Source: a virus (taxonomy: Duplodnaviria > Caudoviricetes). From it: 64,000 nucleotides of DNA. Location: IMG/VR virus record IMGVR_UViG_3300006752_000009. One strand, 5' to 3'. Each line of letters starts with the position of its first letter. Position 1 is the first letter of the stretch. The position numbers and the translations under genes are program-made. Under the pieces are notes generated by a model, which saw nothing but the letters and a program-made list of their open reading frames with translations, was not told the origin of the DNA and ran no database searches. This document shows positions 1,176 to 59,020 of this stretch, in pieces.

Positions 1176-1231
1176 GTAGATCTTTTATAGGTTCTTCATT
1201 GGTAGCCATATTAACCAAATGGAGAATTATT

Positions 1232-2338
1232 ATGAGAAGATCAGCAAGTTTTGGTGACATCCTCGTTGATGTCATCGAAAAATATGAAGATGAGCTAATG
1301 GCTCTTGATTCAGAGTATATTGATGGTGGTGATGACTACGCTAACCGAAAACAAGATGCTCTTTTTGGAGGGGACCTAGATACAGCTCTTTTGTTCACTC
1401 GTGATCGCAGAGTCAAAGAAGTGTTGCTAACTATTCAATCAGATCTTGATCGTATCGAGAAAGGGGAGATTTCTATTAGAAGATCAGCATCCGATACCAT
1501 CAGAAATCTTGAGGCTCGTGTAGCCCGACTCGAATATAATCGAGGACAAGCCTATATCAACCTCGATCTTGTGGGAGAAAACTTTCGCACAGGAGTTAAT
1601 CTTGCTCACTATATTGTTGACGAAGGCTTTGATCATTTGATGGAGGGTAAGCTATTCATTAAGGATGGATTGAATCTTGTGGATTATCATATTGGTAGCA
1701 ACCTTGAAAGGTTCGAGACTCTGTTGAAACAAGAGATGGTAATGACTCTTGAAGATGTTTCAATCGGGAATCATAGAAGCACGAGTAATGCTGATCCAGA
1801 AGAACTTGAAGATCTGAACCTTCCCGATGTCCAAGACCTCAATCGTTCAAGAGTGAGTGTGGAGCGAGTAATTTCTCCAACATCGGGTACTCCTGGATAC
1901 CTTGTTAAAGTTAATGGTGGGTCGGGTATTAAAGTCGCTCGCTTTGAGAGGTCGGCAGGGACTATGGACTTTTTTAAGTCTTATAATCGCAGGGCAGGGG
2001 AGATCGTCAAAGAGATCAATGGTATCTTACCTATTGGTATCTTTGCGTCTAAGCCAGAGAAGGTAAGTAAGAAGTCTAGGCAAGCTAAGGCGATTTTCAG
2101 AGGTTATATTGGAACAGCCAACTCTCTTTCAGTTGATTTTGACTCAGACCGACATTATAGGATTGTGTTTCTTTCTGATGACGATTATCGGTCGCCTTTA
2201 GAATACGGACTCGATGACTTATATACTCAGAGTTCTTTTACTTTTTACCTTGATGGTAAAGCTGTGGCGACTGCAAAAAATGGGGAGATGGATCACACCT
2301 TTTTAAGTAAGGTTAAAAGAGCGTATAGATCTCAATAG
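1232..2338 (+). CDS. RRSAS-leader family protein (carries the leader twice)
   Basis: Start re-assigned to ATG 1232 after GGAG RBS. Begins MRRSAS and has an internal RRSASDTIRNLEARVARLE at ~1478. Confidence 0.8.
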   Translation: MRRSASFGDILVDVIEKYEDELMALDSEYIDGGDDYANRKQDALFGGDLDTALLFTRDRRVKEVLLTIQSDLDRIEKGEISIRRSASDTIRNLEARVARLEYNRGQAYINLDLVGENFRTGVNLAHYIVDEGFDHLMEGKLFIKDGLNLVDYHIGSNLERFETLLKQEMVMTLEDVSIGNHRSTSNADPEELEDLNLPDVQDLNRSRVSVERVISPTSGTPGYLVKVNGGSGIKVARFERSAGTMDFFKSYNRRAGEIVKEINGILPIGIFASKPEKVSKKSRQAKAIFRGYIGTANSLSVDFDSDRHYRIVFLSDDDYRSPLEYGLDDLYTQSSFTFYLDGKAVATAKNGEMDHTFLSKVKRAYRSQ

Positions 2339-2348
2339 TCTTTTTATC
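2336..2348 (+). promoter_or_regulatory. class B promoter-like motif (TAGT..TTTAT) followed by ATAAGTGATCTC
   Basis: tagtctttttatc then ataagtgatctc; overlaps the TAG stop of the upstream gene. Confidence 0.55.
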
Positions 2349-2397
2349 TCTTATCAATAAGTGATCTCATTAACTACAAACCAAATGGAGAATACCC

Positions 2398-2715
2398 ATG
2401 AGAAGATCAGCATCAGAAACAATTCGTAATCTTGAATCAAGAATCGCTAAACTTGAGAAATCATCTAGCAGAACAGATCGCTTAGAGGAAAAGCAAGATC
2501 ACGCAAAGAAACTAGAACAAATCTTGAAGCCTGTTTTCGGTTCAAGTCTGCGAAGCGTGTACTTTGACTACAACAATAGTGATATGTTCATCGCAGAAGT
2601 AAGTGCAAGTTTTTGGGAGGAAACAGGTCTTAACAAAAATGGATTAAAGACACTTGCAAAGTACACAGAAGGATTTACCCTTGACGGAAACAGAGTTTAC
2701 TTAAACATTGATTGA
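2398..2715 (+). CDS. RRSAS-leader family protein
   Basis: 105 aa, starts MRRSASETIRNLESRIAKLEK; GGAG RBS. Confidence 0.85.
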   Translation: MRRSASETIRNLESRIAKLEKSSSRTDRLEEKQDHAKKLEQILKPVFGSSLRSVYFDYNNSDMFIAEVSASFWEETGLNKNGLKTLAKYTEGFTLDGNRVYLNID

Positions 2716-2744
2716 TCGAAGCCTTTAGGGTTGGTAGTAATTTG

Positions 2745-2757
2745 TAGTTTATTTATA
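2745..2757 (+). promoter_or_regulatory. class B promoter-like motif TAGTTTATTTATA
   Basis: Exact consensus, followed 8 nt later by ATAAGTGATCTC. Confidence 0.65.
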
Positions 2758-2805
2758 CCCTATCAATAAGTGATCTCTTTAACCTTAAACCAATGGAGAA
2801 CTCCT

Positions 2806-3264
2806 ATGAGAAGATCAGCATCAGAAATTATCAGTGAACTTGAGACTCGGATTGCCCGTCTTGAAAGAAAAGCCTCACCCTACCGTCCAGACGGATATGA
2901 CGCATATGAAACTGGAGAGTCAGAGCGACCTCTTGACATCTTTGAGTCTCGGAGTCGAGATGATGAGAGATGGAGAGATTCTGTCTCAACAGGAGAGAGG
3001 GCTGACAAGCAGATTAAGTCTATCCTTAATAGTTCTCGTATTAAGTACACTAATAAATATGGTAGATTTATTTTTGCTGACAAAAGGACTTTGGTTAAAG
3101 CTCTTGAGGCTTTAGGTGAGAGTCGTTCAGACGCTCGGATTCTTGGTGAGAGAGGTACTGATCTTCAAGGAGACTTAATAAATCTGTTTGGTAAGTCTTA
3201 TGAGGTTGCTGTTCCCGATTTGGAAGATGAGCAGTATGAGTACTACTTAGTAGCATCTTACTAA
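2806..3264 (+). CDS. RRSAS-leader family protein
   Basis: Start at ATG 2806 after GGAG; MRRSASEIISELETRIARLERK. Confidence 0.85.
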   Translation: MRRSASEIISELETRIARLERKASPYRPDGYDAYETGESERPLDIFESRSRDDERWRDSVSTGERADKQIKSILNSSRIKYTNKYGRFIFADKRTLVKALEALGESRSDARILGERGTDLQGDLINLFGKSYEVAVPDLEDEQYEYYLVASY

Positions 3265-57136: not shown

Positions 57137-57149
57137 CCCCTTATTTATA
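57133..57149 (+). promoter_or_regulatory. class A promoter-like motif
   Basis: gtaaccccttatttata; its TAA is the upstream stop codon. Confidence 0.65.
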
Positions 57150-57193
57150 CCTTTATGTCATCAACACTTACTCTCTGAAAGGAGAACAACACT

Positions 57194-58141
57194 ATGCCAA
57201 AGGCAATCAATCTAACTTCATCATGTGGAACATATGACTTTCTTCGCCCTCAGTTGGCTAAGGGCAGTCATAAGGGCAAGAATGTCTTGGAGAACATCGC
57301 AGGGTCAGCTTCTTGGGTGGGCGAGATGAAACTCGATGGGCATCGTATGCTCGTATCGTCTACCTGTGCTTGGTCAAGGATCGGCAAGGACATCGCTCGT
57401 ATGGATCATATCCAAAACGAGTGTCCTGTGGGAACTTTGCTAGATGGTGAGATCCTCCCTAAGAGTGGAGCAGAGGGTTCAGATCGTGTATCGAACCTTC
57501 GGGCTGATGACCCTACAGCTCTTGGGTTCGTGGCTTTCGACATCTTGTATCATGAAGGTCAGTATGTCGGTGATCTATCTTGGGACAAGCGTAGAGTTAT
57601 CCTTGAGTCTGTCATCGAGGACAGCATGGAGCATATCAGCTTGAGTCAACTCTACTACATGAACGAGTGGAGTACAGAACAACTCATGGAGATCGCTTCT
57701 GATCGAGAGCATGAGGGTATCATGCTCAAGAAGGTAAACGCTCCATACAAGGCAAACTCACGCTCTGCATGGGTGAAGCATAAGTTCACCGACACCCATG
57801 ATGTGGTGATCGTGGACGCAAACGCAAAGCCTAGTGAGTGGCGAGTCCGACCAGGTGAGGTCTATCGTCAAGATGGAAAGCTCTATCCCGAAGGTCTGCA
57901 TACCGACCCTTGGATCAAGGGGTATGTCGGGCTTAACTATGGCTTCTATGACCAACAGGGAACGCTCCGTATCGTAGGCTCACTTGGTGAGACTGGTCCT
58001 CGTGAAGATATGGAACAATATGTGGGTCGGGTAGCCGAGATCAAGGCTTATGGACAGTACCCTACAGGAGCGTTGCGACACCCTGTCCTTGAGCGTTGGC
58101 GAGAGGATAAACTACCAGAGGACTGTACCTTTGACTTTTAA
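57194..58141 (+). CDS. lig: ATP-dependent DNA ligase (compact)
   Basis: EMKLDGHR (KxDG), LLDGEI, FVAFDIL, EGIMLK, WVKHK, OB domain ending LRHP...RWREDK. Confidence 0.9.
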   Translation: MPKAINLTSSCGTYDFLRPQLAKGSHKGKNVLENIAGSASWVGEMKLDGHRMLVSSTCAWSRIGKDIARMDHIQNECPVGTLLDGEILPKSGAEGSDRVSNLRADDPTALGFVAFDILYHEGQYVGDLSWDKRRVILESVIEDSMEHISLSQLYYMNEWSTEQLMEIASDREHEGIMLKKVNAPYKANSRSAWVKHKFTDTHDVVIVDANAKPSEWRVRPGEVYRQDGKLYPEGLHTDPWIKGYVGLNYGFYDQQGTLRIVGSLGETGPREDMEQYVGRVAEIKAYGQYPTGALRHPVLERWREDKLPEDCTFDF

Positions 58142-58154
58142 GGAGAATAACAAC

Positions 58155-58451
58155 ATGAAGAAACCAAGTTTACTGATCGTGAAAAGCCGAGTAAAGATTG
58201 ACCCTACCTTTGAGAACCATATCGGGTATATCGACTTCAGCTTTGCTAACCGAGAGTACAAAAAGTTTGAGGGCATCTATCTCAAGTCTTTTGATAGTCG
58301 TAAAAACTCTCCTAGATTTAGATCGGGTCTGACCCAAAGTCAGACCAAGCTCACAAACACGATCTCGATGAACTTAGTTGACTATAAAGGTCTTGATGTA
58401 GGCTCATTTCTTGAGAGCTTACAGTCAGTTTTCAATGTGGTCGAGGGATGA
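58155..58451 (+). CDS. hypothetical protein
   Basis: Start re-assigned after AAGGAG. Confidence 0.6.
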   Translation: MKKPSLLIVKSRVKIDPTFENHIGYIDFSFANREYKKFEGIYLKSFDSRKNSPRFRSGLTQSQTKLTNTISMNLVDYKGLDVGSFLESLQSVFNVVEG

Positions 58452-58530
58452 ACAGGCACAAGATAAAAGCCAAAGTCTCAATGTCTTGGGTTTCTTGGAG
58501 ATCTTAAGATCAGTCTTCAATGTGGCTCAA

Positions 58531-58543
58531 TAGTTTATTTATA
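58531..58543 (+). promoter_or_regulatory. class B promoter-like motif followed by ATAAGTGATCTC
   Basis: Exact tagtttatttata. Confidence 0.65.
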
Positions 58544-58591
58544 CCTACACATAAGTGATCTCAATCAACCTTAAACAATGGAGAAATCGTT

Positions 58592-59020
58592 ATGAGAAGA
58601 TCTGCCAGTGAAGTAATCCGTAATCTTGAGAGTCGTATTGCACAACTTGAAAAATCTGCAAAGTCTACTCCGATTACATTGGAGTCTCCAGGTAGTCAGA
58701 TGAGGGGTACTGTAAATACTCAGACTGTAAACGGTTTGAAAGAAATGCTCAAATCCGTACAAGAAATGTACGACATGGGTACATATATTGAAGACCCTAA
58801 AGATGAGTTTGAAGAGATTAATGTTTCTTGGGACTATAAAGGTTGGATTGATCTCGGAAACAGTATTCAGTTCCAGGTCAATCACGAAATCAACTACGAT
58901 GGTAACCCTTACCTTGAGGTATCTAAAGAGGAACTTTGTAGAGCCATGTGTGCAGAGGGTCTTTGCGATGACCTTATCAAGAAGTTCTTAAAGAGAAACT
59001 TAAAGAACCATTCTATGTAG
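58592..59020 (+). CDS. RRSAS-leader family protein
   Basis: MRRSASEVIRNLESRIAQLEK; GGAG RBS. Confidence 0.85.
   Translation: MRRSASEVIRNLESRIAQLEKSAKSTPITLESPGSQMRGTVNTQTVNGLKEMLKSVQEMYDMGTYIEDPKDEFEEINVSWDYKGWIDLGNSIQFQVNHEINYDGNPYLEVSKEELCRAMCAEGLCDDLIKKFLKRNLKNHSM

What the first reader, a model, noticed from the sequence alone, without database searches (positions are those of the whole stretch)
1177..59020. Portable promoter+RBS+N-terminal 'MRRSAS' leader cassette on five unrelated proteins: candidate capsid-targeting/processing system
Seen: ORFs at 1232, 2398, 2806, 32291 and 58592 all begin ATG AGA AGA TC. Four continue MRRSASE(T/I/V)I(R/S)(N/E)LE(S/T/M)R(I/V)A(K/R/Q)LE(K/R); ORF 1232 carries the full version internally. 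After ~20 aa the proteins show no evident similarity. Four also share the upstream block TAGT..TTTAT(A)-N7-8-ATAAGTGATCTC...AATGGAGAA-N5-6-ATG, so promoter, 5'UTR and leader travel as one module. The same TAGT..TTTATA motif precedes fibre and sheath genes, pointing to late expression. Established: T4 internal proteins (IPI-III) share a short N-terminal capsid-targeting sequence that is removed by the prohead protease. Inference: this is an analogous exchangeable address tag (basic RRSAS plus an amphipathic/coiled-coil helix) that packages varied payloads into the head for ejection. The [RK]xA[SG] motifs recurring in these proteins may be cleavage sites.
Basis: partly seen in the sequence, partly recalled or inferred. 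Interest (0 to 1): 0.85.

Follow-up and report, generated by a model that had tools for sequence, protein, structure and literature searches.

The report
Shared address tag on megaphage proteins
An uncultivated giant phage puts the same 24-residue helical tag, usually with the same late promoter and leader RNA, in front of dozens of unrelated small proteins. The tag is most likely a label that loads them into the phage head, as phage T4 does with its internal proteins, but no experiment has shown this.

Summary
All five window ORFs start ATGAGAAGATC (0.07 expected). Four carry the full leader, consensus MRRSASE-[IV]-I-x-x-LE-x-R-[IV]-A-x-LE. ORF1232 has a cut-off copy at its start and a full copy inside.

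A related complete 376-kb phage genome (G001) has 31 copies. A leader profile finds 1062 protein clusters in 1.84 billion, nearly all at residues 1-25. Payloads are almost all orphans: 118 families among the best 143.

Synonymous codons vary, so selection acts on the peptide. The 5'UTR has no conserved RNA fold. Leader genes are promoter-to-stop units that come and go as indels, four precise, between syntenic phages. They use the promoter class of the head, sheath and fibre genes, and often lie just after the major capsid gene.

A motif, [KR]-x-A-S, flanks the leader helix. It is enriched in the head protease, the scaffold and core-like proteins, and is conserved there. It is probably the maturation cleavage site.

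Best reading (about 0.45): a T4-CTS-like head-loading tag that the prohead protease removes. Location in the virion and cleavage are both untested.

The scan noted the same cassette family in the neighbouring window, and a different shared tag in another megaphage.

The parts
1177..1231 (+). Cassette head of ORF1232: late-type promoter motif, a partial UTR block and the RBS AATGGAGAA.
   Evidence: It is 90% identical to G001 68329-69584. That homology ends at nt 1245, 14 nt into the leader.
1232..2338 (+). ORF1232, 368 aa. It has a cut-off leader (MRRSAS|F), an extension of about 80 aa, then an internal full leader and a payload.
   Evidence: The payload after the internal leader is 38% identical to the leader protein P0136.
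1478..1540 (+). Internal full leader copy, RRSASDTIRNLEARVARLEY, without ATG, RBS or promoter.
   Evidence: Leader HMM: 36.4 bits, E 2.5e-10.
2336..2715 (+). Complete cassette: promoter, UTR block, RBS, leader and an orphan payload (ORF 2398-2715, 105 aa).
   Evidence: 50.8 bits. No homologue of the payload was found. This stretch has no counterpart in G001.
2745..3264 (+). Complete cassette (ORF 2806-3264, 152 aa). Its leader ends RLERKA|S.
   Evidence: (46.2 bits).
32228..33109 (+). Complete cassette (ORF 32291-33109, 272 aa): leader helix, module A, a disordered linker holding RLAS, a ferredoxin-like module B, and a disordered tail holding KRAS.
   Evidence: AF2 model. The ORF equals a fusion of two neighbouring G001 leader genes, 145303 and the C-terminal part of 145958.
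58531..59020 (+). Complete cassette (ORF 58592-59020, 142 aa). It is an insertion relative to G001.
   Evidence: 52.0 bits. Window 58452-59036 has no counterpart in G001, where the flanks abut.
58431..58451 (+). Left copy of the 21-bp direct repeat that flanks the 58592 insertion. It is also the 3' end of the upstream gene.
   Evidence: Two exact copies in the window, 0 expected. G001 has one copy.
59040..59060 (+). Right copy of the 21-bp direct repeat. It is also the 3' end of the convergent gene 59028-59396(-).
11228..11285 (+). Same promoter class, without the leader UTR, before the 2319-aa fibre-like gene.
50743..50786 (+). Same promoter class before the zinc-ribbon gene and the 1616-aa tail sheath gene.
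   Evidence: sheath matches phrog_2839, E 1.6e-30.

Best explanation
The leader is an address tag for virion assembly, most likely for the inside of the prohead.

Anatomy. Each cassette is a self-contained late gene: a late promoter (TAGTTTATTTAT, 8-9 nt, ATAAGT), an unstructured 5'UTR with a strong RBS, and a 24-residue tag. The tag has a basic tip (M-R-R-x-A-S-E) followed by two and a half heptads of amphipathic helix (I-I-x-x-L-E-x-R-I-A-R-L-E-K-Q-A).

Proposed mechanism (inferred). The helix docks the attached protein onto a conserved part of the assembling head: the scaffold or core, or the inner face of the capsid shell. The head maturation protease then cuts at the [KR]-x-A|S sites on both sides of the helix (R-S-A|S at residues 3-6 and [KR]-Q-A|S at 21-24). 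This frees the payload inside the head, from where it would leave with the DNA at infection.

Because the tag and its expression signals are constant, new payload genes can be gained, lost, fused or swapped by recombination at or next to the cassette head. This gives each phage some 17 to 31 tagged genes, most of them orphans.

Shown: the conserved peptide and cassette, selection on the peptide, payload diversity, indel behaviour, promoter class, position next to the capsid gene, and motif enrichment and conservation.

Inferred: docking, cleavage, encapsidation and ejection.
For: 1. Same leader, unrelated payloads.
- 46 unique proteins in IMG/VR loci fall into 36 payload families.
- G001, a 375,691-bp genome rated 100% complete by CheckV, has 31 copies.
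- 1062 protein clusters match at E<=1e-3, nearly all at residues 1-25.
- The best 143 make 118 payload families.
- Pfam finds almost nothing in them.

2. Selection acts on the peptide. Invariant residues use many synonymous codons. R15 is AGA 8, CGT 8, AGG 7, CGA 3, CGG 1. S6 is TCA 14, AGT 8, AGC 2. Internal copies have no ATG or UTR.

3. Late, structural promoter class. In G001 the motif occurs 66 times against 5.6 in shuffles. It stands before the decoration-MCP operon, the head operon, the fibre and sheath operons, and at least 18 leader genes.

4. Position. 13 of 27 distinct relatives have a leader gene within 3 kb downstream of the MCP gene on the same strand. The density in G001 predicts about 12%.

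5. [KR]xAS flanks the helix.
- With leaders removed, the G001 proteome has 108 sites against 55 +/- 7.5 expected (z 7.1).
- They are concentrated in the protease (4 against 0.33), the scaffold (4 against 0.6), a 344-aa head-operon protein (3 against 0.19) and an 870-aa protein (9 against 0.84).
- The MCP, decoration and portal proteins have none.
- Sites are conserved across 35 scaffolds.
- R[IV]ASG at residues 25-29 is kept in 26 of 28 proteases, and R-x-A-S in all 28. A K-x-A-[SG] site stands just after the catalytic domain in most.
- The homologous phage G protease gp19 has sites at the same places.

6. In the AF2 model of ORF32291 the leader is a free helix (residues 5-25). The two internal [KR]xAS sites lie in disordered linkers.

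7. Precedent. T4 internal proteins share only a CTS that takes them into the scaffolding core, and gp21 then removes it (PMC3012670, PMC5694885).
Against: There are no virion proteome, N-terminal or localisation data.

The docking partner is unknown.

The protease fold and its specificity are unknown: there is no Pfam hit and the AF2 model has pLDDT 50.

Payload pI is ordinary (median 6.3, as for the whole proteome), not basic like the T4 internal proteins.

The leader HMM does not hit the scaffold. Its likeness to a scaffold helix is by eye only.

Only some leader genes lie near head genes. Others lie next to fibre genes or among metabolic genes.

Phage G, the nearest cultured relative found, and LR745208 have no leader.

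The [KR]xAS enrichment could reflect another function, for example a phosphorylation site.
Confidence: 0.45

Rival explanations
1. The leader docks payloads onto another part of the virion, not the head interior. Possible sites are the outside of the capsid (as decoration or hair-like accessories), the tail, or the coiled-coil shafts of the giant fibres. The short zipper would join a matching helix there, and the payloads would be exchangeable surface modules.
For: The promoter class is also that of the fibre and sheath genes. In the window three leader genes (1232, 2398, 2806) lie upstream of the two fibre genes of about 2300 aa, separated from them by an amidohydrolase gene on the other strand. 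G001 has leader genes 105836 and 107342 at the matching place. The heptad pattern is typical of a coiled coil.
Against: Putative cleavage sites on both sides of the helix fit removal of the tag better than a permanent anchor. Leader genes are enriched after the MCP gene, not after fibre genes. Most payloads are about 100-250 aa with no receptor-binding or Ig-like family.
Confidence: 0.2
2. The leader is a tag for proteins that stay in the infected cell. It could be a homo- or hetero-oligomerisation zipper, a handle for a chaperone, a protease or a compartment, or a regulatory site. R-R-x-x-S and R-x-x-S resemble targets of basophilic kinases. On this reading, about 30 late proteins would be controlled or gathered together.
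For: Conservation shows that the peptide has a function, but not where. The payloads have ordinary pI. A few carry nucleic-acid-binding domains (WGR, OB) that would also be useful in the cytoplasm. Leader genes are scattered over the whole genome.
Against: This reading does not explain the enrichment next to the MCP gene. It also does not explain why the flanking motif is shared with the head protease and scaffold at conserved positions.
Confidence: 0.15
3. This is an ordinary, fast-evolving paralogous family. All these genes would descend from one gene by duplication, with a constrained N-terminus and the rest diverged beyond recognition. Nothing would then be portable.
For: Some payloads are related to each other. 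One family has 7 members, and modules recur. Tandem arrays exist, for example in G006 at 150-157 kb. Synonymous sites in the leader are far diverged, so the copies are old.
Against: There are 118 payload groups among 143 representatives, with lengths from about 45 to more than 480 aa. Pfam-recognised payload domains, found on different proteins, are WGR and OB; module B of ORF32291 is ferredoxin-like by model. At the ORF1232 locus homology stops 14 nt into the leader, and a different payload follows in each of the two phages. Leader genes are precise promoter-to-stop indels. Even if the reading were true, the conserved tag would still need a function.
Confidence: 0.08
4. The module is only an expression cassette: promoter, translation-initiation region and favourable first codons. 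The peptide would have no role of its own.
For: Codons 2 and 3 are almost always AGA AGA. The UTR with the start of the gene is less structured than shuffled sequence, as in highly translated mRNAs (z +2).
Against: 24 residues are conserved through many synonymous changes. Full copies occur inside proteins without ATG, RBS or promoter. Some copies have an unrelated UTR. There is no conserved RNA structure and no covariation.
Confidence: 0.04

Closest known systems
Capsid-targeting sequence (CTS) of phage T4 internal proteins IPI-III and Alt
   Same: A short shared N-terminal peptide sits on otherwise unrelated, fast-changing proteins. Those proteins are made late and taken into the scaffolding core, and the prohead protease removes the tag (PMC3012670, PMC5694885). 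Here too there is a constant tag, diverse payloads, late promoters and putative protease sites at the end of the tag.
   Different: The T4 tag is 10-20 residues and is cut after Glu by gp21. This tag is 24 residues, a heptad helix with a basic tip, with putative A|S sites on both sides. There is no sequence likeness, and no PHROG or Pfam hit. T4 has a handful of tagged proteins. These phages have 17-31 per genome, and 1062 clusters in public data. The phage belongs to the phage G lineage, with a small HK97-type MCP. Encapsidation is shown in T4 but not here.
Propeptides of head and ejection proteins in phiKZ-like giant phages (phiKZ, 201phi2-1, SPN3US)
   Same: Many internal head proteins carry N-terminal propeptides that the prohead protease cuts at a short motif. 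The SPN3US paralogues gp53 and gp54 keep identical N-termini while the rest has diverged. The protease also cuts off its own C-terminus (PMC5694885, PMC10052503).
   Different: Those propeptides are mostly longer than 100 residues and are not one common tag. Their motif is (A/S/G)-x-E. That lineage is unrelated, with a T4-type MCP and protease.
Morons and the mobile regulatory cassettes (PeSL) of T4-type phages
   Same: They are self-contained units with their own promoter, gained and lost between conserved genes, with recombination at the shared regulatory sequence (from my own knowledge of Arbiol et al. 2010 and the lambdoid moron literature, not read here). Leader genes here are precise promoter-to-stop indels.
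   Different: PeSL units carry an early promoter and a stem-loop and encode no shared peptide. Here the promoter is of the late class, there is no stem-loop, and the conserved part runs 72 nt into the coding sequence.
Cargo-loading peptides of encapsulins and coat-binding helices of phage scaffolding proteins (P22, 80alpha)
   Same: A short peptide or helix binds the inner face of an HK97-fold shell and brings a cargo or scaffold inside (from my own knowledge).
   Different: Those peptides are usually C-terminal and are not removed. No binding to the MCP was tested here.
Herpesvirus assemblin maturation sites
   Same: Cleavage between Ala and Ser in the scaffold and in the protease itself, at release and maturation sites (from my own knowledge). 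Here [KR]-x-A-S sites are conserved in the scaffold, at the N-terminus of the protease and just after its catalytic domain.
   Different: The assemblin consensus has a hydrophobic residue where this motif has Lys or Arg. The fold of this protease could not be determined. Cleavage here is inferred only.

Membership tests
T4-type CTS-tagged internal head proteins | One short N-terminal peptide shared by otherwise unrelated proteins of one phage | tested here: met
   Five in the window, 31 in G001, and 118 payload groups among 143 representatives.
T4-type CTS-tagged internal head proteins | Sequence homology to the T4 CTS or to T4 internal-protein families | tested here: not met
   No PHROG or Pfam family matches any of the five proteins at E<=1e-4; the best is one weak PHROG match of unknown function (E 5e-4) to ORF58592. 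Pfam finds nothing relevant in the 46 and 149 leader proteins scanned.
T4-type CTS-tagged internal head proteins | Tag removed by the prohead protease at its consensus site | not testable with these tools
   Indirect only. [KR]xAS sites flank the helix and are enriched and conserved in the protease and scaffold.
T4-type CTS-tagged internal head proteins | Proteins present inside the prohead or virion | not testable with these tools
   No proteome is available. Support is circumstantial: late promoter class and position next to the MCP gene.
T4-type CTS-tagged internal head proteins | T4 gp21-type (S77) prohead protease and T4-type head genes | tested here: inconclusive
   The G001 protease matches phrog_18299 'head maturation protease' (E 4.9e-14). 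It has no Pfam family and no PDB sequence match. Its AF2 model has pLDDT 50. The MCP is of phage G gp27 (HK97) type, not gp23 type.
Moron / mobile regulatory cassette (PeSL-like) | Self-contained unit with its own promoter, present or absent between conserved flanking genes | tested here: met
   Window 58452-59036 is absent from G001. G001 genes 162831, 147797 and 142328(-) are absent from the window, with flanks that abut.
Moron / mobile regulatory cassette (PeSL-like) | Conserved stem-loop next to the promoter | tested here: not met
   RNAalifold gives only 3 pairs and no covariation. Single folds have z from 0 to +2.3.
Tat or Sec signal peptide | Hydrophobic h-region after the basic n-region | tested here: not met
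   Residues 7-24 are charged and amphipathic (E, R, N, E, R, R, E, K). The model gives one soluble helix.
Encapsulin-type cargo-loading peptide | Peptide bound in a pocket of the HK97-fold shell protein | not tested

The most novel reading that the evidence does not exclude
A widespread lineage of uncultivated phages of 290-380 kb runs a plug-in protein-delivery system. Any gene placed behind a 24-residue coiled-coil tag is made late and loaded into the head. The maturation protease then trims it at [KR]-x-A|S, and it is injected with the DNA. The pool of more than 1000 mostly orphan payload families would then be a large, unexplored set of first-minute effectors for host takeover or against host defence. 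The tag could also be used to package chosen proteins into large capsids.
Probability: 0.3. Interest if true: 0.85.

Novelty: new variant of a known kind. Interest (0 to 1): 0.72.

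Why it matters
If the tag loads proteins into the head, each virion could carry about 30 different cargo proteins. 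Public metagenomes would then hold more than a thousand unrecognised cargo families, marked by one simple sequence rule.

That would do three things:
- Give a direct handle on what giant phages inject.
- Supply a candidate cleavage rule for the head protease of the phage G lineage.
- Extend the T4 CTS principle to a distant lineage, with a different and longer tag.

Even if the destination is different, a 24-residue peptide kept on more than 1000 otherwise unrelated proteins is an unannotated functional element. It deserves a family model.

Tried and rejected
- **RNA structure in the UTR and leader.** RNAalifold and single folds show none, and the region is less structured than shuffles. Rejected.
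- **Complex prediction, leader against the scaffold N-domain (residues 1-170).** No verdict: score 0.01 and both chains poorly folded. This is not evidence either way.
- **Payload function.** The AF2 model of ORF32291 is good (pLDDT 75.6). Foldseek against PDB and BFVD gave no match at E<=1e-3, only generic ferredoxin-like likeness for module B. The ESM Atlas gave nothing above chance for ORF58592.
- **Protease fold.** The AF2 model has pLDDT 50, so no fold search was run. There is no PDB or Pfam hit.
- **Leader in GenBank phages.** megablast and tblastn found nothing. LR745208 and phage G have no leader. One genome per GTDB species: none.
- **Basic, DNA-binding payloads as in T4.** Not seen; pI is ordinary.
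- **[KR]xA[SG] enriched inside payloads.** Not clearly.
- **Leader derived from the scaffold helix G[RK]xASQREIEDLALR.** The likeness is by eye only, and the leader HMM does not reach it. I keep it as a lead.
- **Repoila et al. 1994 on T-even internal-protein loci.** The paper is not held. It is cited only through PMC3012670.

Full report
**What the window is.** It is part of a very large tailed phage. It holds two fibre-like genes of about 2300 aa, a 1616-aa tail sheath (phrog_2839, E 1.6e-30), a DNA ligase, a thymidylate synthase, homing endonucleases and seven tRNA genes. The closest GenBank record by sheath protein is the 485-kb uncultured phage LR745208 (49% identity), followed by Tunturi_5 and Bacillus phage G. 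About 43 kb of the window aligns at 70-90% nucleotide identity, in synteny, with IMG/VR contig 3300033182_000980. I call this contig G001. It is 375,691 bp and CheckV rates it 100% complete. The window's own protein P0020 is on record on a 347,814-bp contig.

**The observation.** ATGAGAAGATC occurs five times, all on the + strand, against 0.07 expected. Four ORFs (2398, 2806, 32291, 58592) begin with the full leader. ORF1232 begins MRRSASF and has a complete copy inside it at nt 1478. None of the five proteins has a Pfam family at E<=0.01, and the only PHROG match below that level is a weak one of unknown function to ORF58592. Their payloads fall into five separate blastp groups.

**How far the leader goes.**
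- An exact scan of IMG/VR for the RBS plus the first 11 nt found 91 stretches on many contigs.
- These gave 46 unique complete leader proteins in 36 payload families. Pfam recognised only a C39-like peptidase, on a protein that lacks the full leader.
- A leader HMM, which does not depend on that DNA pattern, finds 31 copies in G001. Variants include MRRTAS, MRKSAS and MKRNAS. Three of the 31 copies lie inside longer proteins.
- Other relatives have 27 matches (G006, 312 kb, with terminal repeats), 17 (G007), 11 (G005, about 57% complete), 5 weak ones (G003) and 0 (G004, 63% complete).
- A 30-column profile searched against 1.84 billion representative proteins gives 1062 hits at E<=1e-3 and 106 at E<=1e-10. 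Nearly all lie at residues 1-25.
- The best 143 fall into 118 payload groups. Pfam finds WGR twice, an OB fold once, and weak single hits for the rest.
- The consensus is M-R-R-S-A-S-E-[IV]-I-[RN]-N-L-E-x-R-[IV]-A-R-L-E-[KR]-[QS]-[AS], with no conservation after residue 24.
- LR745208, phage G and one genome for each GTDB species have no leader.

**Peptide or RNA?** Invariant residues use many synonymous codons. R15 is coded five ways and S6 by both the TCN and AGY codon families. Full copies exist without ATG, RBS or promoter. RNAalifold finds no structure and no covariation. Single folds of the UTR plus leader are as weak as, or weaker than, shuffles. The peptide is therefore under selection. 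The UTR is an open, strong initiation region. It usually accompanies the leader but not always.

**Expression class.** The motif TAG-N4-TTTAT followed by an ATA(A/T)G-like element stands before the leader genes. It also stands before the fibre gene 11286, gene 18825, the sheath operon and gene 43712(-). In G001 it occurs 66 times against 5.6 in shuffles. There it precedes the decoration-MCP operon, the operon that holds the protease and scaffold, the fibre and sheath operons, and at least 18 leader genes. The timing itself is inferred from this company.

**Cassette behaviour.** Comparison of the window with G001 shows the following:
- Window 58452-59036, which holds the whole 58592 cassette, is an insertion. 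It is flanked by an exact 21-bp direct repeat that restores the 3' ends of both convergent neighbour genes.
- G001 genes 162831, 147797 and 142328(-) are promoter-to-stop units missing from the window, where the flanks abut.
- ORF32291 equals G001 gene 145303 fused to the C-terminal module of gene 145958.
- At ORF1232, homology to G001 stops 14 nt into the leader, and a different payload follows in each phage.
- Some contigs carry a 15-codon leader stump that runs straight into the next cassette's promoter.
- Multi-leader proteins such as P0001, P0004 and P0014 look like fusions of neighbouring cassettes.

**The head connection.** G001 has a head module made of:
- an MCP homologous to phage G gp27 (PDB 6WKK, E 3.6e-63);
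- a decoration-like protein;
- an acidic 513-aa scaffold-like protein with an EF-hand;
- a 482-aa protease (phrog_18299);
- proteins of 1171 and 344 aa;
- a portal, about 20 kb away.

The MCP is 92-100% identical across the 80 IMG/VR loci kept of 573 that encode a relative, while the scaffold ranges from 34 to 100%. In 13 of 27 distinct arrangements a leader gene starts within 3 kb downstream of the MCP gene on the same strand, often within 200 bp. The density in G001 predicts about 12%. The arrangements are not phylogenetically independent.

**A candidate cleavage motif.**
- The leader helix is bracketed by R-S-A-S (residues 3-6) and [KR]-Q-A-[SGA] (residues 21-24).
- In G001, [KR]-x-A-S occurs 143 times, against 59-70 for five control motifs.
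- With the leaders removed it occurs 108 times, against 55 +/- 7.5 in composition-preserving shuffles.
- The most enriched proteins include the protease, the scaffold, the 344-aa head-operon protein and an 870-aa late-operon protein. The MCP, decoration and portal proteins have none.
- Sites are conserved across 35 diverged scaffolds: G[RK]xAS, DP[KR]LA[SR], KKAS, RQAS and R[ET]AS.
- R[IV]ASG at residues 25-29 is kept in 26 of 28 proteases, and R-x-A-S in all 28. A K-x-A-[SG] site stands right after the catalytic domain in most, where prohead proteases commonly cut themselves (PMC5694885 for the self-cleavage).
- Phage G gp19 has K-I-A-G, K-V-A-S and K-I-A-S at matching places. Phage G gp7 and gp4 are enriched too.
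- No extended consensus was found around the sites.
- In the AF2 model of ORF32291 the leader is a separate helix (residues 5-25). Both internal sites lie in disordered linkers between or after domains.

I infer that [KR]-x-A|S is the maturation cleavage site and that the tag is cut out after loading. This is not shown.

**What remains open.** The partner of the helix is unknown. One complex job against the scaffold N-domain gave no verdict. The protease fold could not be modelled. Payload function is unknown: there are no fold matches, and pI is ordinary. The [KR]xAS motif is not clearly enriched within payloads.

**Comparison and verdict.** The system works most like the T4 CTS and internal-protein system, and partly like the propeptides of phiKZ-type phages. 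It is not a sequence member of either. Its gene units behave like morons. I rate it a new variant of a known kind. The tag is new and is not in Pfam or PHROGs. The number of tagged genes per genome is far larger than in T4. The lineage is distant. The mechanism rests on circumstantial evidence.

**Earlier notes in this scan.** The scan had already noted the same cassette family in the overlapping neighbour window of this genome (e1-5373611). It had also noted a different shared tag on 17 proteins of another 437-kb phage (e1-5379144). I used neither as evidence.

Noticed in passing
window 60352-60450 (+): ARAGORN calls a 99-nt tRNA with anticodon CTA (labelled Pyl), which would read the amber stop codon. 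It lies in a cluster of seven tRNA genes (59541-63767). Long ORFs in the window are open under the standard code, so the phage's own genes do not appear to be recoded. The tRNA's role is unexplained.
   Followed up: no
G001 (L099-L117) proteome; phage G L119: The motif [KR]-x-A-S is about twice as frequent as expected across the whole G001 proteome. It is concentrated in the head protease, the scaffold and several large late proteins. The same pattern appears in phage G gp19, gp7 and gp4. It is a candidate cleavage rule for the head protease of the phage G lineage.
   Followed up: partly
L120-L199 (IMG/VR head loci): The major capsid protein is 92-100% identical across the 80 IMG/VR loci kept (of 573 that encode a relative), and 88-96% in the best 120 of 2097 protein clusters. 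The adjacent scaffold protein ranges from 34 to 100%, with a hypervariable acidic middle. This is an unusually frozen capsid protein.
   Followed up: partly
G001 67345-67938 (+) = L102:7345-7938: A 197-aa protein with a leader-like N-terminal helix (LNLERRVADLE, without RRSAS) carries a DUF4258 domain, a family I recall as toxin-like. It lies opposite a leader gene and has its own late promoter.
   Followed up: no
G001 78106-79827 (+) = L102:18106-19827; P0071, P0127: WGR domains, which I recall as nucleic-acid binding, follow the leader in several proteins. In G001 the leader lies at residue ~303 of a 573-aa protein encoded next to the portal gene.
   Followed up: no
L005:5069-5174 and five other loci (L009, L026, L056, L071, L074): Two cassette heads lie only 95 bp apart. 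The first encodes a 15-residue stump (MRRSASQ...) that runs into the promoter of the next cassette. This looks like the scar of a payload deletion.
   Followed up: partly
window 4289-11227 and 11286-18245 (+); 51227-56077 (+): There are two fibre-like proteins of about 2300 aa with internal repeats, and a 1616-aa tail sheath in which only the last ~335 residues match the sheath family. The large N-terminal part of the sheath is unexplained.
   Followed up: no
window 24464-25804 (-), 44854-45873 (+), 46336-48315 (+): Several genes for homing-endonuclease or HNH-type proteins and DNA-binding proteins lie among the structural and metabolic genes.
   Followed up: no
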